Made by a program: the position numbers and the translations under genes
Notes under the pieces: model-generated
Seen by the model: the letters and a program-made list of their open reading frames with translations, nothing else
Told to the model about the DNA's origin: nothing
Databases searched by the model: none
Virus record (IMG/VR): IMGVR_UViG_3300029288_000067
Span: 1-64,000 of that record
Strand: one strand, 5' to 3'
DNA from: a virus
Lineage: Duplodnaviria; Caudoviricetes
Length of the DNA: 64,000 nt
Shown: positions 31,291 through 62,625 of the stretch, piece after piece
Layout of the letters: every line of letters starts with the position of its first letter
Position numbering within the stretch: position 1 is the first letter of the stretch

Positions 31291-32027
31291 AACTTTCCTT
31301 CCCAAACAATTTCAGCATTTTTACCGGAATGAAGCCTCCAATTTTTCCCATCGAAGGAGGGCACAAAACCCCTTTTCCACAACTTTGTAAGATAAGAAAA
31401 AAGGTTGTGGGGGTATTTAATTTTTACAAAGGAAGAACAATAAGCCCTCACGGAATCTCTCATGGAATCCCACACGGAATCCCCCACGGAATCCCACATG
31501 GAATCCCACACGGAATCCCCCATGGAATCCCTCACGGAATCCCCCACGGAATCCCACACGGAATCCCCCACGGAATCCCACATGGAATTCCACACGGAAT
31601 CCCCCACGGAATCCCACACAGAAGCCCATTTTTTCAGATTTTTGACATCTTCTACGGAAGGGGTTTGGGGTTCTGGGAATTTCTTAAAAGGATTCACAAT
31701 TTCTTTCAAAATGAGAGGTTCCACAATTGTTTTGAAATCCAGAGATTCAGCCCATTTCTTTAATTCCCAAGAGTCATCTACTTCATTGTTGATTTGGTCG
31801 ATTGTGAATACTCTCGTAAAAGGATTGTATTCATATTTGTTAAGGACATCTTCTTGTCTCCCCACGTACCCGTGAAACTCTGCAATAGATGTATGAGAAT
31901 CCGGTTCTGTAACCAACAAATTATTCTCAAACCGGAGCTTTTTAGCAAGTATTTGTTTTCTCTGTTTCCAATTGAAGAACATAGGAATTCCGTCACCCCT
32001 ACTTACAAAGCTGAAGAATTTACACAT
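31287..32027 (-). CDS. tetrapeptide-repeat (xDSV) phage protein
   Basis: 15 tetrads (W/G/R)(D/N/A)S(V/M); start MCKFFS after an ACAGGAG RBS. Confidence 0.75.
   Translation of the reverse strand: MCKFFSFVSRGDGIPMFFNWKQRKQILAKKLRFENNLLVTEPDSHTSIAEFHGYVGRQEDVLNKYEYNPFTRVFTIDQINNEVDDSWELKKWAESLDFKTIVEPLILKEIVNPFKKFPEPQTPSVEDVKNLKKWASVWDSVGDSVWNSMWDSVGDSVWDSVGDSVRDSMGDSVWDSMWDSVGDSVWDSMRDSVRAYCSSFVKIKYPHNLFSYLTKLWKRGFVPSFDGKNWRLHSGKNAEIVWEGKF
31446..31630. repeat. 12-bp coding tandem repeat, ~15 units
   Basis: GGAAT recurs every 12 bp from 31452 to 31608. Confidence 0.95.
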
Positions 32028-37211: not shown

Positions 37212-38945
37212 CTATTGCATATTGATTCGCTTGTAAGGGACCCCATTGGAAACAAAAAATTCTTCCGGGAGTTTTTTCTGCAAGGATAAATATTTCCCGG
37301 GCTCTTTTTGCAATAAAACTTGGAAGAGTTTACCCTCTCCGGAGAAATTTGAAATCTCTTGCATTAATTGTTGTGTTACATCCCCCATCTCCAGCAAAAG
37401 GGCATTGTGCTGGGGTTCTTCCTCAATTTTCGGGACAATAACATTCTGCAGGTAAATTCTCGCCGAAGGGTATTTGATTTTTGCTGTAAAAGATCGAGTC
37501 TTATCGTACTCCACATCCATTTCAAGGGTAAAGTCAACTCCCAGCAATTTTACAATATCATGTATTTGCATAGTTTTGTACAATTCTGGGATAACATTGT
37601 CGAATTGGGCTGTCTTTATCAAAAAATCTTCTTCGTCGTGGATCGATAAAAGCATTGAACAAATAAAATCCCGGTAAGAGAAATTTGCGAACAACGGAAC
37701 CATGTTGGAGTAATACGGGCTCCAATTATGCTTTCGGATAAAGTCTGTTGCCCGGATCATCGATATTTTCAAGGCATCTGCTGCTGTAGATTGGATAGGG
37801 TGATTCAGGCCCGTTCGAATAGCATACCCCATGTCCTTTTTTCTTTTCCACAGTTCTTTTTCTATTGACTGAGACCATCTCCGAACATCTCGAATTCTTC
37901 CGAATAAATTTTTAACAATGCCGTAAGCTCTTACGGCTTGTTCTGTAAAAAGCATACTTTCTTGTGCTTTTTTCAATTTCGAGAAAAAGGCATTCAATGC
38001 TGCTTGTGCTTCTTGTTCGGAGCAATTCATATACTCGCACAATGTTCTTGCTGCTGCCCCATAAATTGCTGCCAACCCACATTGTTTTGCAATCTTCCGG
38101 TAGACATCAAAAATATCCCAGTCTGCTTTTTGGAATTCCTCTATTGGTTTTTTCGGCCAATCCGGTTTTGTTGAAAAGAAAGCTAAGGCATTCAATCCGT
38201 GAAAATCCCCGGGAATATTTTTCTTGAAATCTCGGACATCTTTGCAGGGATGTTTACACTTGGCACATTGATCAATAAATGTTACTTTATCCAACTCCCC
38301 CAATAAGACACAGAATTTTTTGCCTTTTATTGAAACTACGGAGTTATTCTCTCCACTTTGCGGGGGAATTACTTCTTTTACAATAACCTTTGGAACTCCC
38401 TCGTAAATCTTAATCCATTCGGGCTCTTGTGTTGCAATAGCAGAGAAACGAGGCTCAATTGCAGAATAATCGAAGGCAACAATATGATCCCCCGGGGTGT
38501 ATTCCTCACAAACTGTAAAATATTGTGAGTATTCCGAAGTATCAAATGTCTCTTTATTTCCGTAAAATCTAAATTGCCCCTTTATTACAACAAAAGGTTT
38601 TCGGAAATCGGATAGGATAAAATGAATATTTCTCTCATCGAGGGAGTTTTCATCCCGGGGGTGATTCCATAAATGTTGTGGAACGGAAAGAAAAGAAATT
38701 TCTGGCTTCAAAGAAAGAACAAGGAATGCACGTTCCTCAAAACCAACCCCTCTGCGGGAAGATGGAATAATCCCCGTAAAAGTTTCCTCGGGAGACATTT
38801 CACATTTTCCAGTATACGGGCAAGTGTCACAAGATGCGCGAAGACAATAATGTTTCCCTTGCTGTAAAAGAAATTGTCTTGGATTCCCAATAAGAAAAGC
38901 TTCCAAGTGTTCACATTTATCTTTCAAAGGAACTTTATCGATCAT
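37212..38945 (-). CDS. family A DNA polymerase, C-terminal catalytic part
   Basis: Motif A AFDYSAIEPR, motif B RKIAKQCGLAAIYG, NHPIQSTAAD, motif C SIHDE. Confidence 0.9.
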   Translation of the reverse strand: MIDKVPLKDKCEHLEAFLIGNPRQFLLQQGKHYCLRASCDTCPYTGKCEMSPEETFTGIIPSSRRGVGFEERAFLVLSLKPEISFLSVPQHLWNHPRDENSLDERNIHFILSDFRKPFVVIKGQFRFYGNKETFDTSEYSQYFTVCEEYTPGDHIVAFDYSAIEPRFSAIATQEPEWIKIYEGVPKVIVKEVIPPQSGENNSVVSIKGKKFCVLLGELDKVTFIDQCAKCKHPCKDVRDFKKNIPGDFHGLNALAFFSTKPDWPKKPIEEFQKADWDIFDVYRKIAKQCGLAAIYGAAARTLCEYMNCSEQEAQAALNAFFSKLKKAQESMLFTEQAVRAYGIVKNLFGRIRDVRRWSQSIEKELWKRKKDMGYAIRTGLNHPIQSTAADALKISMIRATDFIRKHNWSPYYSNMVPLFANFSYRDFICSMLLSIHDEEDFLIKTAQFDNVIPELYKTMQIHDIVKLLGVDFTLEMDVEYDKTRSFTAKIKYPSARIYLQNVIVPKIEEEPQHNALLLEMGDVTQQLMQEISNFSGEGKLFQVLLQKEPGKYLSLQKKLPEEFFVSNGVPYKRINMQ

Positions 38946-40591
38946 ATTTGTGCAACTCTCTCCACAAAGGATACTTCTACTTCTTTTCCATAGGGATCTT
39001 CGAAATTAAGCCCACATTCAACTGGAAGGCTTTTGATACAGTTCAATACTTTGTTCTTACCCTCATCTTTTGAAATTGCTTGTGTGTTTACCCCGGAGGA
39101 CCAATCTCCCTTGTCAAAATTGTAAGTGATATTGCCCGTAGCCGTTTCTTTTACAATAATTTGATCTCTTCCTCCGTTGGATGCCGAAGATAATCGCCCG
39201 GTTGGTGCTACCGTTGTTGCGTACTGCACCTGACTTCGGGCATACGGTAAAACAGAGTCAATATAACTGTTTGTAATGAATTTTGCAAGGATTGTTGAAA
39301 GAGCATGCTCCAATTGTCGATATTGTACAACGTAAGCAAGTAAAGGGTATTGAGGGTATTTCTCGTAAAGTGCATCGAGGAGATCTGCCGAAGTAGAGTA
39401 CAATCCCCCGGGGCTGTTCTTTTTTGGTTTTCCTCTTTCCATGCCTGGAAGAACGGGAACCTTGTATTCATCGAACAGTAGTTTTGAAATCTGTTGCGGG
39501 GAGGCAATATTTATTTTCCTTCCCACGAACTCATAGATCTTGTTTTCAAGATTAAGAATTCGATGAACAATGTCTTTGCAGGCATATAAAGAATACTCAA
39601 TATTTACCGGAAATCCCGTTCGATACATCACTCGCAAAGAGTCCAACAGCATATGATCTATTTTGATAGATACATGCTGTTGGATAAAAATATTGTCTTC
39701 TGCTGGGGTAGAAGAAAGATTGTAGAAAATGAAATAAGTATTCATAGCATCGGAGCAACCGTATACCGAGGCATTTGTTGCAGGAAGCCGATTGAACTGC
39801 ACAAATCCTTTTTGTTTCGACCCCATTTCAGAGAATAAATCTGAGATCTCTACCATCTTTCTGCCCAATTTTTCCGAAACAACTTTCAATTTATGCGTTT
39901 TTTCATTCACATCCTGCAAATAGTGCAGAACCATTGTATCGAGGTAATATGGAAATCCCCGAGGGCTTACCCCATTCAAAGAAAGAACTTCCTTGTCGTA
40001 TTGGGCATTGTGATATAAAACAAGGAAAGTATCTGTGAGCTTCTGCAAAAAAGCCACAATTACTGCATAATCCCAGTTGGGGATACCATCTTCCCCTGTG
40101 TGCATTACTGGGAGGTAATATCCAATGTTGTGAAATGTTGCAAGACAAATACCAACGATCTTTGTTTTCGGGTCAAGCTTCTTGTTCTTGTCGTATACAA
40201 CCCGGGTGTCCAATCCGGTCGTTTCCAAATCTACTGCGATAACAGGAGATTCCACATAATCTTTTTTGTATATTTCAGAAAAAGTAGAAGACATCTTTCC
40301 TGCGGAAGCCACAAGATTATTGAAGAACACCTCCAACTGGTATTGTTGAGCTTCAATTTCATGGGATTCTGGAACAACTAAATTGCAACAGACTTGCCCC
40401 AACCATTCCATCCCATTTCTTTGTGCCAATTGTTCTTGAGAGAAAATACTTGGATCCGGGGGAATATTCGGAAAAGATTGATGTGCCAAATATTTTCGGA
40501 TATCCGGGAGGAATCGGTCTATTTTTTGTTGTCGCATTTCTTCGGAATCTGCGGCAAACAGATTGGATGTTTCAATTTCACTCATCTTCAC
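38942..40591 (-). CDS. family A DNA polymerase, N-terminal 3'-5' exonuclease and thumb part
   Basis: AVDLETTGL (ExoI), HNAQYD (ExoII), YGCSDA (ExoIII), NIASPQQ..LF, TGRLSS. Confidence 0.9.
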   Translation of the reverse strand: MKMSEIETSNLFAADSEEMRQQKIDRFLPDIRKYLAHQSFPNIPPDPSIFSQEQLAQRNGMEWLGQVCCNLVVPESHEIEAQQYQLEVFFNNLVASAGKMSSTFSEIYKKDYVESPVIAVDLETTGLDTRVVYDKNKKLDPKTKIVGICLATFHNIGYYLPVMHTGEDGIPNWDYAVIVAFLQKLTDTFLVLYHNAQYDKEVLSLNGVSPRGFPYYLDTMVLHYLQDVNEKTHKLKVVSEKLGRKMVEISDLFSEMGSKQKGFVQFNRLPATNASVYGCSDAMNTYFIFYNLSSTPAEDNIFIQQHVSIKIDHMLLDSLRVMYRTGFPVNIEYSLYACKDIVHRILNLENKIYEFVGRKINIASPQQISKLLFDEYKVPVLPGMERGKPKKNSPGGLYSTSADLLDALYEKYPQYPLLAYVVQYRQLEHALSTILAKFITNSYIDSVLPYARSQVQYATTVAPTGRLSSASNGGRDQIIVKETATGNITYNFDKGDWSSGVNTQAISKDEGKNKVLNCIKSLPVECGLNFEDPYGKEVEVSFVERVAQI

Positions 40592-42052: not shown

Positions 42053-42923
42053 CTCCCCCTCCGTATCTTAAGTATTTTAGAAATGCTAACAAAACATTTC
42101 TATTTATAGATATAACAAAGCTTGCCGATTGCCTCATTAAGTTCTGGTTTTAGAGATTGGATGATCATAGTCTCTACGCCACAACTATTTGCAACTAAAA
42201 TTACAATATCATACTCGGAGTAATTAGAAAAGGAGGTTCTGTCCTGCAGGAAGTTGAAAACATCCCTTCGAAGTAATGCAAAAGTCTCCATGTTATAGAA
42301 CATGCAATTATACTTTTTAACAATCTCCAATAAGCCATAAGAAAGAGCATTTGGAGTTGTTGGGGGAATGGTGGCGGGCTCCCGGACAGTAACTTTAGGA
42401 GCTTGCGCCGGAGGAGGACTCTCTGGGCGAGGGTGTTTTGTTTGGAGGTCACAGTGTCTACGGTCAATATATGTGCAGATTGTTGGGAAAATCCAACCCT
42501 GTTTTTTATGGTGTTTGCAGATTCCCGGGTAGTTGAAATGTATACAATTTATATTGAGGTTCATTTTTTACAGTATCCTTTTTTCAAGGGATTCTTAACA
42601 CCCTTGGGAAATGTTGTGCCCTTCAATTTCTTTTCTGCAATTTTGAAGATCTCTCCGTTGGGATTAAAAATACTGCAATCGATATCATCAAATAACTTCC
42701 TATGCATTCTTCCTATCTTGTCTTCATGTTGTTTTAGGTTGTGTGCTGCCATTTTTTCTGCAAGAACAAATCGATCATACTCTTGGTCAAGAGCATCCAT
42801 GATCTCTGCATCAATACCTATTTTGTGCAAATCCACAAGCCAATCGGGGTGGTCTATTAAATATTTAATCCAATGTGTGTATCCATTGGGAGGTTGCGGC
42901 ATTTATATATCCTTTCAGCAGAT

Positions 42924-43032
42924 AAAACAAAGAGCCTGCAACGTCACGATTACCGTCTTCCAACGGGCATCAGATTCAACCTTTCGGTATCAGTCTACGT
43001 GATCCCAGAATAGCATGGCAGGCTCTTGTTTT
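42924..43032 (-). ncRNA. candidate structured ncRNA downstream of tRNA-Arg
   Basis: Closing helix AAGAGCCTGC/GCAGGCTCTT, inner TCACG/CGTGA, ACC-GAAA-GGT and CCGT/ACGG hairpins. Confidence 0.45.
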
Positions 43033-43045
43033 TCAAATTGCAGAG

Positions 43046-48808: not shown

Positions 48809-50950
48809 ACTGTTCCTATTTTATGGGTGCAGTTTAAAAAAGGACTCTGTGAGGTTATGTACAAGATCTTTCATTACATCGGCGGTAAAACAATTGTACC
48901 CAAGAGTGCTTTCAATTGTGTCTTGTATTTCTTTTGCAATAACCCCTCTTCGATCTCTTGTTGAGATAAATACCTGCAAGGCATTCGAGATTACATGGGC
49001 ATATGCATAATCTTCTCTTTTGAGAGCATCTTGAATTTGTTCACAAAGAATAATGGGATATGCCTTACTCTCATTACTCTCTTTTGGGGGTTTGACTTTT
49101 GGCATGGGGATATTAAGGATATTGGGGGAGACTCCAGGTAAACTTTTGGTATCCATTATTTACTTTCCTTCAAATTCTCTTTCAGCAATGCCCACCATGT
49201 ATTGGTTTCTGCACAAATCTCTTCTTGCCTTTTAAGCTCTGCAATTGCTTTTGAAAGTTCTTCTCGAACAGTGTCTTGTTTTTTTCCGATGAGCCGAATA
49301 ACAACGTCAAGGCATACTTTTTTCCACGGGGTTAATTTTGCAGGAACTTCCCAAGGGAGACTATTCCACTTCAACCCAATCTGGAGTTGATTCAATGCAA
49401 ACTCTTTCAGATTCGTATATTTATTGAAGCACCTCCAAGCTTTTACCTTTTGGATCATCTTCTCATATTTTTCTTTTGTCTTTTTGGTCTCTCTGTTATG
49501 CCGAATAACCGCCGCATATTGTTCTTCCCGCTCTTTTGCAAATTCCTCATAAAGAACTTTGATAGGTGTTGTTGTCAATCGTTTGAGTTCTTTTTGAAGA
49601 TCCAACACTTTTTTCTTAAAGTGTGTATCAACAAAAGCTTTCTTTAAATGGGCATTGTCCATACTCCGAGAACGAGGGTCAAAGGCAGTTGCCATTTCCA
49701 ACATCATCGTTTTGAAATCAAACTTCAAATTTTCGGGATCTACGAACATATTGTTCTTCTCCTGTATGTGGATATCTTGGAGGGATTTTACAAAAGTAAT
49801 GTATCACTCCCCAGTCTTTTTGTCAAATTTATCTATCCGGGATATTAATTCTCGGGCTTCCTGTGAAGTCAACCCAAGAAATTCTTCTGTGTCTTTCGGG
49901 GGATTATCACAAGGATGGTCACAACAAAAGAGGGCATTTGTTGTGGGGTTTAAATACAATTTTTCTGCATGTTGTTGAAGACAGGCAAAAGCAACTGCGG
50001 CAACTTGTAAAACCTCGTGTATACCGGAGTCTCTTCCAATTTTATTTTTAAGCCAACCCAATTTGGCTTCCTTTATTTCTTCCTCCAAAACCAACAAAAA
50101 TCCTTCAAAGGGTTGATCTTTGTCTTCTAATGTCCCATATTTCTTTGTTTGATATTCTCGCTCTTGTTGAATTAATTCAATTACCTGTTGTTCGGAAAGC
50201 ATCAAATTCTCCTATTTACTTTGGGGAATACTCGGACATGCCAACACACTCTTTACATTTAAGGGTTAAAAAAATGTTCTGACTGAATGCACAATCCTCA
50301 CAACGTCTATATGTTCGAAATCCCACAGGTTCACATTTTATGGTCTCGTAGATTTGAGAACAAGTTGAGGGCTCATCGAAAGCAAGATGGGGTTCTCGAT
50401 GCTTGCACTTTTCACAAATACATCTTTTTGCCCGATTGCATACATACAAAATTCCAACAATTTCCTCGGGGGTTGGTAAAGGACTCATGATTTTTTCTCC
50501 AATCCTGGAATCAATTTGGAGGAAATCATACTGGAAACAGTTGTGTGTGTTGGGTTCTTTTCCGCGTATTCCTCGAAATATGTACTTGCTTTTTCGAGGG
50601 CACTTGTTGAATCTGTGGCCCACACCCAAATTTTTACGTATCGATATGCTTCATCAGAAAAAGCATAATCTTTTGCGGGGGGCATAGGGGATTCTCTTGT
50701 TACTGAAAGACCCTCCCTCACAAAGTCATAGTGAACACAGTAATATGTAAGTTTCGAATAGTCCTGTGTCACAGCATTTATTTTAACTTTCCACGTACGG
50801 GCTCGTGGGGTTATGTCTTGCAGTTGTTTGGCTTTTACAGGGTCATCAAGGATAACATCCACAAAATCAAGGTTGTTATCAGATTTGACATAAACAATGT
50901 AAGCATATTCAGGTTGTTTGTTTTTCATATATTCTCCTGTATTTATAAAT

Positions 50951-51065
50951 AGGTGGGGGCGAGAGGGGTGACCTCTTTCTTTTCATATCCGTATATCAAG
51001 CAAGGGTCCGGAACACCTTACCATGAATCCGAAGATTATACGGACGGCAATTCTTTGCAACCCCC
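50951..51065 (-). ncRNA. tRNA/tmRNA-like structured RNA
   Basis: GGGGG 5' end pairs with CGCCCCC-A-CC; AGAGG/CCTCT arm; 9-bp GTCCGTATA/TATACGGAT helix; C(UUCG)G hairpin. Confidence 0.55.
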
Positions 51066-51072
51066 GAAACAA

Positions 51073-51146
51073 AGCACCTGATGGGACTCGAACCCACAAA
51101 ATTCCACACTGGCAATGTGGTGATCTACCAATTGATCCACAGGTGC
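51073..51146 (-). tRNA. tRNA-Gly(GCC)
   Basis: CCACA-TTGCCAG-TGTGG. Confidence 0.9.
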
Positions 51147-51201
51147 AAAAAGCAATGATTTATCGGCCCGAAACTCTTGTAAGAAATCACCGCTTTTTAA
51201 A

Positions 51202-51277
51202 TACACCCGAAAGGACTTGAACCTTCAACCTTTGCCTCCGCAGGGCAACGCTCTAAATCCAGTTGAGCTACGGGTGT
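51202..51277 (-). tRNA. tRNA-Arg(GCG)
   Basis: TTGCC-CTGCGGA-GGCAA. Confidence 0.88.
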
Positions 51278-51292
51278 GTAACTTCTTTCTAT

Positions 51293-51321
51293 ATATTACC
51301 ATTACTCCTTTGTAATTTCAA
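51293..51321 (-). promoter_or_regulatory. sigma70-type promoter for the tRNA cluster
   Basis: TTGAAA-17-TAATAT. Confidence 0.65.
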
Positions 51322-51327
51322 GCTAAA

Positions 51328-52122
51328 TTAAATTTCAGACCAATCTAAGTTAAAGTAGGGATCTTCTCGAAGCTCCTTGGGATCAAAATGATAATACATC
51401 ACCCATTTTCTCACAGCATTATCAGAAACCCCATACTGTTTTCCCATTTTCAAAAACACAAAATTGCAATTCTGGAAAGATTGAATTAGTTCGGGAATTT
51501 GAGGTCGCTTTTTGTCTTTAACGTGCATTTGATAACAGGGTAAACATAATTCATGTTTTGCGGCATTGCTTCTGGGCTCTCCACAGATGGAACAGGGTTT
51601 AATTTTGTTTTTTCCAACTCTCCTATAGATTTCGGAAAGTGGCAATGCTCCTTTATTGTGTTTTCCCGCAAAAGTTTCTAATTGAGAATTACAGTTGGGG
51701 CAAACAAAACGAAGATTTTCTATCCGATTGTCATTGGGAACACCATTGATGTGATCCAAAACAAGCACCAATTTTTTATCGTTATGTGAAGGCAGTTGAC
51801 CACATATGCTACATATTTCTGGAAGAAGATTCTTTTTTAAGATTCTGTTTTTTATCCCTTTTCGAGCATATGATGAATTTTCAACAAATACTTCAGAATC
51901 TGCTTTTAGAATCGCGCCCCCTCTTGGAAGGTTTTTACTTAATAGGATATGCTCAAACGAAATACCTTCTTTTTTTAACCTTGCTTGAAGGGTTTTATAG
52001 TTATTGCCTTTATTTTCCAATCCAAATTTAGCTAGGATCTCTTTGAAATACTTTGAGGTTTTCACCCAATCCTTCAACATTTCCGCAGGAACTTTCCAAA
52101 TTGTAGAAGTATATTTTCTCAT
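51328..52122 (-). CDS. HNH homing endonuclease within the tRNA cluster
   Basis: CSICG..LVLDHING..NDNRIENLRFVCPNCN; C-terminal HTH GVSDNAVRKW. Confidence 0.9.
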   Translation of the reverse strand: MRKYTSTIWKVPAEMLKDWVKTSKYFKEILAKFGLENKGNNYKTLQARLKKEGISFEHILLSKNLPRGGAILKADSEVFVENSSYARKGIKNRILKKNLLPEICSICGQLPSHNDKKLVLVLDHINGVPNDNRIENLRFVCPNCNSQLETFAGKHNKGALPLSEIYRRVGKNKIKPCSICGEPRSNAAKHELCLPCYQMHVKDKKRPQIPELIQSFQNCNFVFLKMGKQYGVSDNAVRKWVMYYHFDPKELREDPYFNLDWSEI

Positions 52123-52408: not shown

Positions 52409-52414
52409 ATAAAA

Positions 52415-52533
52415 ACTGTGACCCTGCTGTTTGCCCTTAAGTGGGCTGATTATACCGGCAGGGCTCGGGCTGGTTCCCCTATACCCGTGCGCCCATTTCT
52501 GGATTACGGGTGTTCCACCTTTGTCACCACAGC
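52415..52533. ncRNA. candidate ~118-nt three-way-junction RNA upstream of tRNA-Pro
   Basis: GC-rich island; CTGTG/CACAG closing helix, ACCCGT/ACGGGT and CCCTGC/GCAGGG arms. Confidence 0.5.
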
Positions 52534-52559
52534 TTTTTTATTAATTAGACTTCCATTTC

Positions 52560-54080: not shown

Positions 54081-54630
54081 TGCCGGGAGCGGGACTTGAA
54101 CCCGCACGAGATTTCTCCCTCCGGATTTTACCTACCACTTCGGCTTTCGCCGCCAAGACTTTAACTTTCTGTACCCGTGGGATACAGGGCTTTTCTTGTT
54201 CGTGGTCTGGATCATATCTTTGCACAGGTCTATGCCATCTCCAGCTTTGAAAGCCTTTATGACACGCTTTGCAAGCGAAGCCCGAGTTTCCTCTGACAAG
54301 GCAGTTGGCACATGATCTCTACGAGGGTATTCATTTCTTCCCACGTTAGGCGTTCTTCACGTCCCGTCAGGATTCATCATGAAAGAACCTTCTCTCGGAA
54401 TTGGGTTGTCCTGTCCCTCTTTCAAGTGCTCCGTATCCCAGTAACGAGATTCGGGAGAAGAGGGCTTCACCACGTATGGAGTTTATCCTTATTTGGTAGC
54501 TCTCACTATACTTTTTCAGCAAGCCGTTTTCCGATTTCGCCAACATCCCACAGGGAATTTCTTACCCTGTGGACCCATTTCACATTTGTGTTACTAGAGT
54601 CCGGTGTGTCTACCGTTTCACCATCCCGGC
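54081..54630 (-). tRNA. tRNA-Leu(UAA), intron-containing
   Basis: 5' exon GCCGGGATGGTGAAACGGTAGACACACCGGACT (54630-54598) + 3' exon TAAAATCCGG...long variable arm...TCCCGGCA (54130-54081). Confidence 0.9.
54131..54597 (-). mobile_element. group I self-splicing intron (467 nt, no homing ORF)
   Basis: Follows U, ends in G; P1 GGACU/GGUCC with U.G wobble; P AAATCGGAAAAC, Q AATTCCGAG, R CGTAGAGATCA, S AAGATATGATCCA. Confidence 0.88.
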
Positions 54631-59385: not shown

Positions 59386-59389
59386 ATAA

Positions 59390-59636
59390 GTAATGCAGGT
59401 AAAGAACTACTAGGCTTACAGGGCATCTTTGTGGGCTCCGTCGTTTGTCTGACTCCTTAGAAACCAGCATCAGGCAATCTATCTGATTTCGGCATCAGTG
59501 GTTAGTTCCACTCGACTCCACAGTATCGACCCTTACAATTGCCATTGTATTACTATCCCGATGAACTCGATAGTTTTCGCCAGCCCCAGACGCATTTAAT
59601 AAGGCTTGTGTGTCACATACCACACCGCTGCATTAC
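59390..59636 (-). ncRNA. candidate 247-nt multi-hairpin ncRNA
   Basis: 9-bp closing helix GTAATGCAG/CTGCATTAC enclosing at least 7 hairpins; no ORF. Confidence 0.6.
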
Positions 59637-59660
59637 AGAACAACCCCGTAAAGGGCACCT

Positions 59661-59828
59661 GCATACCACATGTTGCCACAGTCTCCCCAAGGATTTAGGG
59701 ATATAACCCAGTTGTGTACTCATGCCTGTCATTCTATCCCAACAAGCACCCCTCCACAACCGTTTCGTTTTACCATTTGCAAATTCCTGATAGAGGGAAT
59801 ATTGCTACAGCGAACGAGGGCGGTATGC
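59661..59828 (-). ncRNA. 6S RNA-like rod (168 nt)
   Basis: Terminal stem, central purine-rich bubble with a small 3' hairpin, apical stem. Confidence 0.55.
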
Positions 59829-59839
59829 GAACAAGACAA

Positions 59840-61809: not shown

Positions 61810-62625
61810 TTACTCCTGTTCTGTAATTGGTCTGTGTCCTTTGAAAACAAAGGACACTCGATTCTTGATCTTGTGGAGCGGGGGGATAGAAACTTCCACA
61901 ATATCTTTCCGCTCAATTTGTAGATCTGGATTGGACCGGGCATCATGCTTCTCCGGTAATTTCTCCAACTCTTCTGTTGTGAATTTCCGGAAAGAAGAAA
62001 CCTTCTGCAGATAAATCCCTCGCTTGAAGAAATCCGGGAGATCGTTGAAATTTACCCCCTTTTGGAATAACATTTCCTGTTTCTGCTTCCCGTCTTTTCC
62101 CTCAAGCTCTTTGTGGTAGTAATACACCCGTGCAGCCATAGAGATAGCATTTTTTGTTGCATCTTGCTCTCTCCACAGCAAATAATTCACTGCTTCGATG
62201 CACGTTGGGACATTCCAAGCCCTGCAATCAAAAATAGCTGGTCGCGACATCAGCCTTTCCGGAAAGAACAATTTGCAACCCTCCTGGAAAAAATATGTTG
62301 CAAGGGATGCCAACACAGAGTTGATTTTGTAAATCTTCCCATCAAAAATCAATTGTGATTTCGGGTTTTCCTCGTAAAGAATGAGAGAAATCTCATCCGA
62401 CTGGGTATACCCAATAATGGCACTTGTTTCTTCCATCAACTTCCTTGTTACATACGAAAAGATTTTCCGCAGTCTTTCATCATAGGGACGATTCATGCCC
62501 TTCGTGTAACTGTGAAATGCCTTCCCATCAATGCGAATGCAGAGAGGGAGAAGAGGCATAGCAATGAGGGAGGTACCATTCCTCTCATATGCTTTCATGC
62601 GGTTGCCAAAAGAATCATTCTGCAT
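61810..62625 (-). CDS. tRNA(His) guanylyltransferase / Thg1-like 3'-5' polymerase
   Basis: RMKAYE, IRIDGKAFHSYT, GYTQSDEISL, FDCR, YLLWREQDA.KN, FKRG. Confidence 0.92.
   Translation of the reverse strand: MQNDSFGNRMKAYERNGTSLIAMPLLPLCIRIDGKAFHSYTKGMNRPYDERLRKIFSYVTRKLMEETSAIIGYTQSDEISLILYEENPKSQLIFDGKIYKINSVLASLATYFFQEGCKLFFPERLMSRPAIFDCRAWNVPTCIEAVNYLLWREQDATKNAISMAARVYYYHKELEGKDGKQKQEMLFQKGVNFNDLPDFFKRGIYLQKVSSFRKFTTEELEKLPEKHDARSNPDLQIERKDIVEVSIPPLHKIKNRVSFVFKGHRPITEQE

What the first reader, a model, noticed from the sequence alone, without database searches (positions are those of the whole stretch)
50951..51065. 115-nt tRNA/tmRNA-like RNA with a branched domain replacing the anticodon arm
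Seen (minus strand): GGGGGUUG...CGCCCCC-ACC acceptor-like stem, an unpaired D-region as in tmRNA, and a 9-bp helix GUCCGUAUA/UAUACGGAU. That helix leads to a C(UUCG)G hairpin and a GUAAGG/CCUUGC hairpin, followed by a T-arm-like AGAGG/CCUCU with a non-canonical loop. It starts 7 nt after tRNA-Gly(GCC). There is no anticodon loop, tag ORF or G3.U70 pair. Inference: a tRNA mimic (decoy for anticodon nucleases, SmpB or synthetases, or a Y-RNA-like molecule).
Basis: partly seen in the sequence, partly recalled or inferred. Interest (0 to 1): 0.7.

Follow-up and report, generated by a model that had tools for sequence, protein, structure and literature searches.

The report
Orphan cloverleaf-shaped RNA in phage tRNA operon
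A 224-kb uncultivated phage carries, right behind one of its glycine tRNA genes, a 115-base gene-free stretch that folds like a tRNA outline but has no anticodon and none of the tRNA signature loops; it is probably a small non-decoding RNA like the still-unexplained RNAC/RNAD of phage T4, but it has no relatives anywhere, so selection and function could not be tested.

Summary
The "unpaired D-region" actually forms a 4-bp hairpin, so the fold is a full four-arm cloverleaf with a long branched arm where the anticodon arm would be.

The fold is stable and strand-specific. None of 600 shuffles matched both its topology and its energy. It lies in one of the GC-richest ORF-free gaps of the phage, 7 nt after tRNA-Gly(GCC), downstream of a promoter-like site.

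It is tRNA-like in outline only:
- Rfam tRNA, tmRNA, tRNA-Sec and YrlA models give no match even at E<=10, and ARAGORN finds nothing.
- No internal deletion uncovers a hidden tRNA.
- The T-like loop has 5 nt, the D-like loop lacks GG, and the 3' trailer breaks the rule the phage's own tRNAs follow.

No homolog exists in any collection searched, and the nearest relative lacks the whole region. Covariation is therefore untestable, and expression could not be checked.

Best reading (about 45%): a non-decoding small RNA cut out of the tRNA transcript, the positional analogue of T4 RNAC/RNAD.

The phage does encode Ro60, but two YrlA-like RNAs sit beside that gene 157 kb away, so the Y-RNA reading is unlikely here.

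This scan has noted similar anticodon-less tRNA-like phage RNAs on other DNA, though not this sequence.

The parts
50951..51065 (-). 115-nt cloverleaf-shaped ORF-free element (helix-closed core 50955-51065, plus tail ACC-U at 50951-50954)
   Evidence: Folds; shuffle test; genome-wide ranking
51060..51065 (-). 5' strand of the acceptor-like helix (GGGGGU); pairs with 50955-50960 (GCCCCC)
   Evidence: Pair probabilities 0.91-1.0
51047..51058 (-). D-arm-like hairpin GCAA-AGAA-UUGC (4 bp, 4-nt loop without GG)
50987..51045 (-). Long arm in place of an anticodon arm. A 9-bp helix opens into a three-way junction with an AUC-UUCG-GAU hairpin (51027-51036) and a 31-nt irregular hairpin (50996-51026). 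The tip of that hairpin holds the palindrome UCCGGA.
   Evidence: No 7-nt anticodon loop. No deletion variant scores as a tRNA at ARAGORN's default threshold.
50977..50986 (-). 10-nt A-rich joiner AUGAAAAGAA, in the variable-region position
   Evidence: Unpaired in all folds
50962..50976 (-). T-arm-like hairpin AGAGG-UCACC-CCUCU (5-nt loop, no UUCRA motif)
   Evidence: Pair probabilities 0.84-0.99
51073..51146 (-). tRNA-Gly(GCC), directly upstream on the same strand
   Evidence: ARAGORN; Rfam 59.8 bits
51147..51201 (-). 55-nt spacer hairpin between tRNA-Arg and tRNA-Gly
   Evidence: Fold, -13.1 kcal/mol
51202..51277 (-). tRNA-Arg(GCG), first gene of the presumed transcription unit
51293..51321 (-). 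Sigma-70-like promoter candidate (TTGAAA, 17 nt spacer, TG-n-TAATAT)
   Evidence: Consensus scan only
50485..50928 (-). Downstream ORF P0001 (147 aa, ORFan). Its Shine-Dalgarno AGGAG starts 16 nt after the element's closing helix, and no terminator lies between them.
51328..52122 (-). HNH homing-endonuclease-like ORF upstream of the promoter
   Evidence: Pfam HNH_3, E = 1.9e-5, 24.6 bits, just under the 24.8-bit curated cut-off

Best explanation
The element is a real, lineage-specific structured small RNA that does not decode.

Proposed mechanism:
1. It is transcribed from the promoter-like site at 51321-51293, together with tRNA-Arg(GCG) and tRNA-Gly(GCC).
2. It is released by the tRNA-processing machinery. 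The 6-7-bp acceptor-like helix stacked on the 5-bp T-like stem gives the roughly 12-bp minihelix that RNase P can cut in front of G1.
3. The 3' end is trimmed back to ACC, and the phage's or host's CCA-adding enzyme may complete it.

This makes it the positional and architectural counterpart of the small stable RNAs RNAD and RNAC, which follow tRNA-Arg in the phage T4 tRNA cluster and whose roles are still unknown.

What is shown: the fold, the strand, the position, and the absence of decoding features. What is inferred: transcription, processing, stability and any trans-acting role.

My best guess for the role is a tRNA-shaped ligand that engages a protein recognising the acceptor/T minihelix, rather than anything that reads an anticodon.
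For: - The fold is robust, strand-specific and unusually stable. It has cloverleaf topology, and no shuffle reproduces topology and energy together.
- It is a GC-rich, ORF-free patch 7 nt after a tRNA on the tRNA strand. The other GC-richest gaps of this phage are also tRNA-adjacent.
- A promoter-like site lies upstream of tRNA-Arg and no terminator lies before the element.
- The phage already encodes tRNAs for all 20 amino acids, so no decoder is missing.
- It also encodes a CCA-adding enzyme, Thg1 and Ro60, so it invests heavily in tRNA-shaped RNA handling.
- T4 has the same layout: a homing endonuclease gene, then tRNA-Arg, then rnaD (119 nt), then rnaC (139 nt, with an end-closing helix and long hairpin arms). 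Their roles are unknown (PMC3014915, PMC9697503).
- tRNA-model matches with a long hairpin in place of the anticodon loop occur in the nearest relative (G001, 109 nt, 41 bits) and elsewhere in this phage (124 nt, 39.6 bits).
Against: - No homolog was found, so there is no covariation and no evidence of selection.
- The only other contig that carries the element is identical to it.
- There are no expression data.
- The T-like loop (5 nt) and D-like loop (AGAA) cannot form the canonical tRNA elbow that RNase P, RNase Z and CCA enzymes also read.
- Of the phage's 31 tRNAs, 29 have U right after the discriminator. The element has CC there, so it is not processed by the same 3' rule.
- The statistical signal is moderate: z is about -2.2 to -2.4, roughly the top 2% of windows.
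Confidence: 0.45

Rival explanations
1. The element is a structured 5' leader of the P0001 mRNA rather than a free RNA. After tRNA-Gly is cut away, the helix-closed domain stays on the downstream message. There it acts as a 5' cap-like stabiliser against 5'-end-dependent RNases, and as an insulator between tRNA processing and translation.
For: - No terminator lies between the element and P0001, and the Shine-Dalgarno sequence starts 16 nt after the closing helix.
- A second helix-closed element of about 100 nt occupies the same kind of place, between tRNA-Arg(UCG) and the next ORF at about 42930-43030.
- The trailer CC after the putative discriminator does not fit the phage's tRNA 3' processing rule.
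Against: - A simple hairpin would suffice as a stabiliser, whereas this is a four-arm junction with a branched arm.
- Four other tRNA-to-ORF junctions in the window have no such element.
- The element does not sequester the ribosome-binding site in any fold.
Confidence: 0.2
2. The element is a decayed tRNA gene or an inert spacer. A former tRNA, or an insertion into one, has lost its T, D and anticodon loops and persists without function. The cloverleaf is a remnant or a coincidence.
For: - It has cloverleaf topology without any conserved tRNA nucleotides.
- It is a singleton in a hypervariable 20-kb accessory region (41-62 kb) that is absent from the nearest relative.
- The statistics are only moderate.
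Against: - A decaying gene in a 39% GC phage should drift towards AT and lose helices. Here all five helices are intact, GC is 50%, and a UUCG tetraloop is present.
- No deletion variant restores a recognisable tRNA at ARAGORN's default threshold. Lowering the threshold gives only inconsistent calls.
- It shows no similarity to any of the phage's 32 tRNAs.
Confidence: 0.2
3. The element is a Y-RNA-type partner of the phage Ro60 protein, a second and divergent Y RNA encoded away from the Ro60 gene.
For: - The phage encodes a Ro60 orthologue: TROVE 35.9 bits plus Ro60 vWA 58.2 bits.
- Bacterial Y RNAs mimic tRNA, and bacteria often carry more than one.
Against: - The YrlA model does not match the element at E<=10.
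- Two YrlA-like matches (37.1 and 26.8 bits) with the diagnostic order T-arm, acceptor hairpin, D-arm lie within 1 kb downstream of the Ro60 gene, 157 kb away.
- The element's ends lie in the acceptor-like helix, not in a Ro-binding stem.
Confidence: 0.05
4. The element is a mini-tmRNA or a decoy for SmpB or AlaRS.
For: A G-rich acceptor-like helix followed by ACC loosely recalls the ends of tmRNA.
Against: - There is no G3.U70 pair, no canonical T loop and no tag reading frame.
- ARAGORN and the Rfam tmRNA models are silent.
- The D region is paired, not open.
- The phage has no SmpB.
Confidence: 0.02

Closest known systems
Phage T4 small stable RNAs RNAD (species 2, 119 nt) and RNAC (species 1, 139 nt)
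   Same: Both are encoded directly behind a tRNA (T4 tRNA-Arg) on the tRNA strand, in a tRNA cluster that also holds a homing-endonuclease gene. They are 115-140 nt long, have no anticodon, and have an end-closing helix with long hairpin arms. Their function is unknown (PMC3014915, PMC9697503).
   Different: There is no sequence similarity. T4 RNAC keeps a canonical T arm (GGGUUCGAAUCCC), whereas this element has a 5-nt loop. The T4 RNAs are experimentally detected; this one is not.
Phage 'tRNA look-alikes' with a hairpin in place of the anticodon loop, and tRNAs with unexplained inserts (Lak megaphage 'enigmatic introns', PMC6784885)
   Same: A tRNA outline with a long extra arm at the anticodon position, encoded inside phage tRNA clusters.
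   Different: Those keep canonical D and T arms and score 40-41 bits on the Rfam tRNA model. This element scores nothing at E<=10 and has a branched arm rather than a simple one.
Bacterial Y RNA YrlA (Rfam RF02553) with Ro60/Rsr
   Same: A non-decoding tRNA mimic. The phage encodes Ro60.
   Different: YrlA is circularly permuted relative to this element: its ends form the Ro-binding stem, its acceptor is closed by a loop, and its T and D arms are canonical. The model does not match here, and YrlA-like RNAs sit next to the Ro60 gene instead.
tmRNA tRNA-like domain
   Same: An acceptor helix and a T-like arm, with a long helix leaving from the anticodon/variable side.
   Different: There is no G3.U70 pair, no canonical T loop, no open D loop, no pseudoknots and no tag ORF. 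It is 115 nt rather than about 360 nt.

Membership tests
tRNA (Rfam RF00005) | Covariance-model score of at least 29 bits, or an ARAGORN call | tested here: not met
   No match at E<=10 on 221 nt. ARAGORN finds none, with or without the intron option.
tRNA (Rfam RF00005) | 5-bp anticodon stem with a 7-nt loop (U33, purine 37) | tested here: not met
   A 9-bp helix opens into a three-way junction. All 1596 internal deletions give no tRNA at the default threshold.
tRNA (Rfam RF00005) | 7-nt T loop (UUCRANY) and a D loop with G18 G19, forming the elbow | tested here: not met
   The T-like loop is UCACC (5 nt) and the D-like loop is AGAA.
tRNA (Rfam RF00005) | Four-arm cloverleaf closed by a 7-bp acceptor helix with a single-stranded 3' end | tested here: met
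   6 bp plus one mismatch, three inner arms and an ACC-U tail.
tmRNA | G3.U70 pair, tag reading frame, canonical T arm, and a model match | tested here: not met
   G3 pairs with C109, there is no ORF, and ARAGORN and Rfam tmRNA are silent.
YrlA / bacterial Y RNA | RF02553 model match and the module order Ro-stem, T-arm, acceptor hairpin, D-arm, Ro-stem | tested here: not met
   No match at E<=10, and the topology is the opposite.
YrlA / bacterial Y RNA | Encoded next to a Ro60/rsr gene | tested here: not met
   The Ro60 gene is at G000 206535-208184, 157 kb away, with two YrlA-like matches beside it.
T4-type small stable RNAs of tRNA operons (RNAC/RNAD) | Gene directly downstream of a tRNA on the same strand, within the tRNA transcription unit, and about 115-140 nt long | tested here: met
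   7 nt after tRNA-Gly, a promoter-like site upstream of tRNA-Arg, and 115 nt long. T4 layout.
T4-type small stable RNAs of tRNA operons (RNAC/RNAD) | Accumulates as a discrete stable RNA during infection | not testable with these tools
T4-type small stable RNAs of tRNA operons (RNAC/RNAD) | Sequence or model homology to T4 rnaC or rnaD | tested here: not met
   blastn of 50800-51300 against 50,697 phage records hit only tRNAs, not T4. The folds differ.

The most novel reading that the evidence does not exclude
The element is cut out and CCA-tailed like a tRNA although it lacks the tRNA elbow. It then acts in trans as a tRNA-shaped ligand. For example, it could occupy a host defence or housekeeping protein that reads the acceptor/T minihelix, or serve the phage's own Ro60, CCA-adding or Thg1 enzymes. 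The palindromic UCCGGA at the tip of the long arm would allow loop-loop dimerisation. It would then be one of several unrelated structured RNAs that this phage releases from tRNA operons.
Probability: 0.1. Interest if true: 0.65.

Novelty: new variant of a known kind. Interest (0 to 1): 0.35.

Why it matters
Non-decoding RNAs riding in phage tRNA operons have been known since T4 RNAC and RNAD, and they remain unexplained after 50 years. This phage would add an extreme case, one that keeps only the outline of a tRNA and none of its signature nucleotides. It sits in a genome that also carries about 32 tRNAs, a CCA-adding enzyme, Thg1 and a Ro60/YrlA-like set. If the element is expressed and processed, it would show how little of a tRNA the processing enzymes need, and it would provide another handle on what such RNAs do. 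As it stands it is a single sequence with no comparative or expression support, so its value is as a catalogued candidate.

Tried and rejected
Homolog searches, all empty:
- blastn against phage records.
- Exact 19-24-mers from four parts of the element in viral contigs, metagenome contigs and GTDB genome contigs.
- An acceptor-only gapped pattern in viral contigs. It gave 9 hits, and none matches the model at the pattern site.
- A 34-mer of the neighbouring tRNA-Gly.
- A single-sequence covariance model, R1, run over the phage itself and three relatives; it found only itself.

Synteny route:
- The downstream protein P0001 is an ORFan. The only other contig that carries it is identical.
- The 435-aa neighbour has no relatives in viral contigs.
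- DNA-polymerase relatives reach at most 55% identity.
- The best relative, G001, shares about 150 genes but nothing from window 41-62 kb.

Other checks:
- Hidden-tRNA test by exhaustive internal deletion was negative at the default threshold.
- Rfam at a permissive threshold found nothing for this element or for the other structured gaps.
- The anticodon GAU-like reading of UUGAUAU at the 3' side of the arm was considered and dropped. It needs a 6-bp stem and a 40-nt insert between positions 31 and 32, and it was one of many registers tried.

Full report
**What is there.** The window is the first 64 kb of a 224-kb virus record from IMG/VR, estimated about 90% complete. On the minus strand, tRNA-Arg(GCG) (51277-51202) and tRNA-Gly(GCC) (51146-51073) are followed after 7 nt by the 115-nt stretch 51065-50951. 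The Shine-Dalgarno sequence and ATG of a 147-aa ORF, P0001, start 22 nt further on at 50928. No ORF of 50 aa or more spans the stretch.

**The fold.** RNAfold gives the following (positions counted from the RNA's 5' end):
- a 6-bp G/C-rich end-closing helix, with a U/C mismatch as a seventh position;
- a 4-bp hairpin with loop AGAA;
- a 9-bp helix that opens into a three-way junction, carrying a small UUCG-capped hairpin and a 31-nt irregular hairpin;
- a 10-nt A-rich joiner;
- a 5-bp hairpin with the 5-nt loop UCACC;
- a 3' tail ACC-U.

The MFE is -39.2 kcal/mol. The same fold appears when flanks or the whole tRNA-Gly are included. Pair probabilities are 0.8-1.0 for all helices except the 3-bp UUCG hairpin, which is about 0.5. 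Its 'unpaired D-region as in tmRNA' is not, because that region is a D-arm-like hairpin.

**Is it more than chance?**
- The shuffle z-score is -2.4.
- Of 600 dinucleotide shuffles, 8 were as stable, 12 had an end-closed junction with at least 3 branches, and none had both.
- Across 4481 windows of the whole phage, the minus-strand fold ranks 30th in raw energy and 88th after GC correction. The plus strand is 6 kcal/mol worse because of five G.U pairs, which fixes the strand as that of the tRNAs.
- The element is 50% GC in a 39% GC genome.
- Its gap is the 4th GC-richest of 34 ORF-free gaps, and the other top gaps mostly also abut tRNAs.
- A sigma-70-like site (TTGAAA, 17-nt spacer, TAATAT with a TG extension) lies just upstream of tRNA-Arg. 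No terminator separates the tRNAs, the element and P0001.

Taken together I accept the element as a probable structured RNA, at moderate strength only.

**What it is not.**
- Rfam gives nothing for this stretch at E<=10: no tRNA, tRNA-Sec, tmRNA, YrlA or ribozyme match (wider scans).
- ARAGORN finds no tRNA, intron-containing tRNA or tmRNA.
- I deleted every internal segment between positions 21 and 80 (1596 variants). None became a tRNA at ARAGORN's default threshold, and lowering the threshold gave only mutually inconsistent calls. It is therefore not a tRNA interrupted by an insert.
- The phage already encodes tRNAs for all 20 amino acids, so no decoder is missing.
- The T-like loop has 5 nt without the UUCRA motif and the D-like loop lacks GG, so the canonical elbow cannot form.
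- Of the phage's 31 ARAGORN tRNAs, none encodes CCA and 29 have U immediately after the discriminator. The element has CC there. It is handled differently from the phage's tRNAs at its 3' end, or it carries a pre-made CC.

**Relatives.** None could be found.
- Exact-word and gapped-pattern scans of viral, metagenome and genome collections, blastn against phage records, and a covariance model built from the element all returned nothing credible.
- P0001 is an ORFan in 1.8 and 5.8 billion-protein libraries. The one other contig carrying it is identical over 1 kb.
- The closest phages have DNA polymerases at most 55% identical.
- The best of them, G001 (197 kb), shares about 150 genes with this phage but nothing from window 41-62 kb, which is an accessory region.
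- Covariation, the decisive computational test, is therefore impossible at present.

**Context that shapes the interpretation.**
- The phage is heavily invested in tRNA biology. It has about 32 tRNAs in two clusters, some of them odd, a CCA-adding enzyme and Thg1.
- It also has a Ro60 orthologue with TROVE and Ro60-vWA domains. It lacks RtcB and SmpB.
- Immediately downstream of the Ro60 gene, between and after the first tRNAs of cluster 2, are two sub-threshold YrlA matches (37.1 and 26.8 bits). They show the diagnostic permuted order T-arm, acceptor hairpin, D-arm. This makes it unlikely that the element 157 kb away is the Ro60 partner.
- tRNA-model matches with a long hairpin replacing the anticodon loop exist in this phage (124 nt, 39.6 bits) and in G001 (109 nt, 41 bits, with canonical D and T arms and a 10-bp helix carrying a UUCG hairpin). 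Non-decoding tRNA-shaped RNAs therefore recur in this lineage. Those examples keep the tRNA signature nucleotides and this element does not.

**Closest known.** Phage T4 has the same layout: the segB homing endonuclease gene, then tRNA-Arg, then rnaD (119 nt, starting 1 nt after the tRNA), then rnaC (139 nt). RNAC folds with an end-closing helix, two long hairpins and a canonical T arm. Reviews and a 2022 omics study still list the roles of both RNAs as unknown (PMC3014915, PMC9697503). Lak megaphages have tRNAs with unexplained inserts (PMC6784885). Earlier notes of this scan describe anticodon-less tRNA-like RNAs in other phages; I used these as leads only.

**Mechanism and odds.**
- About 45%: a non-decoding small RNA co-transcribed with the two tRNAs and excised by RNase P and 3' trimming, possibly CCA-completed, acting through its acceptor/T-like minihelix. 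Only the fold and position are shown; the rest is inferred.
- About 20%: a structured 5' leader that stays on the P0001 mRNA. A second helix-closed element sits at an equivalent tRNA-to-ORF junction near 42930-43030.
- About 20%: a decayed tRNA or inert spacer.
- About 5%: a Ro60 ligand.
- About 2%: tmRNA-like.
- An anticodon-nuclease decoy is implausible because there is no anticodon loop.

**Verdict.** It is a new variant of a long-known but unexplained kind of phage RNA. With no relatives and no expression data, interest is modest (0.35).

Noticed in passing
G000 206535-208184 (+) and 208681-209045 (+), outside the window; L035:2535-4184 and L035:4698-5031: The phage encodes a Ro60 orthologue (TROVE plus Ro60 vWA domains). 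Within 1 kb downstream, interleaved with tRNA-Asp and tRNA-Glu, are two sub-threshold Rfam YrlA matches (37.1 and 26.8 bits; gathering score 69). They have the permuted order T-arm, acceptor hairpin, D-arm and long terminal stems. This looks like a phage Ro60/Y-RNA module embedded in a tRNA operon.
   Followed up: partly
G000 208980-209103 (+) = L035:4980-5103: A 124-nt match to the tRNA model (39.6 bits) with canonical D and T arms, a 30-nt insert at the anticodon loop and a 27-nt variable region. Its D arm is shared with the first YrlA-like match, so the sequence GGGGAGG has two alternative pairing partners.
   Followed up: partly
G001 (IMGVR_UViG_3300042258_000341) 93426-93534 (-) = L012:1427-1535: The nearest relative has a 109-nt tRNA-model match (41 bits) with an 8-bp acceptor and canonical D and T arms. 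A 10-bp helix carrying a UUCG-capped hairpin takes the place of the anticodon stem-loop. It lies about 0.5 kb downstream of a three-tRNA cluster.
   Followed up: partly
window 42903-43044 (-), 52409-52545 (-), 59386-59839 (-): Other GC-rich, ORF-free, strongly folded stretches touch tRNAs: a helix-closed element of about 100 nt after tRNA-Arg(UCG), a Y-shaped element of about 125 nt before tRNA-Pro, and about 450 nt between two tRNA-Met genes. None matches any Rfam family at E<=1.
   Followed up: partly
G000 209314-209390 (+), 216673-216758 (+), 217535-217619 (+), 217431-217522 (+): Odd tRNAs in cluster 2: one that ARAGORN calls with a 4-nt anticodon (GGAA), an 86-nt tRNA-His(GUG) and an 85-nt tRNA-Cys(GCA) with long variable arms, and a 92-nt tRNA-Tyr. 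The phage also encodes Thg1 (window 61810-62625).
   Followed up: no
all tRNA genes of G000: None of the 31 tRNA genes encodes CCA, and 29 of them have U (mostly UG or UU) directly after the discriminator. This fits RNase Z-type 3' processing followed by CCA addition, and the phage has its own CCA-adding enzyme at about 89.3-90.7 kb.
   Followed up: partly
window 31445-31628: A 12-bp tandem repeat with 15 copies (consensus CCCACACGGAAT on the plus strand) lies inside a 309-aa minus-strand ORF. As RNA it is self-complementary (MFE -107 kcal/mol for 201 nt), which explains the strongest fold signal in the genome scan.
   Followed up: partly
window 37212-40591 (-): The family A DNA polymerase is split into two adjacent ORFs of 549 and 577 aa. 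The same split is seen in relatives G001-G003.
   Followed up: no
window 54081-54630 (-): ARAGORN calls tRNA-Leu(UAA) with a 467-nt intron, but the Rfam group I intron model gives no match at E<=1 in this region.
   Followed up: no
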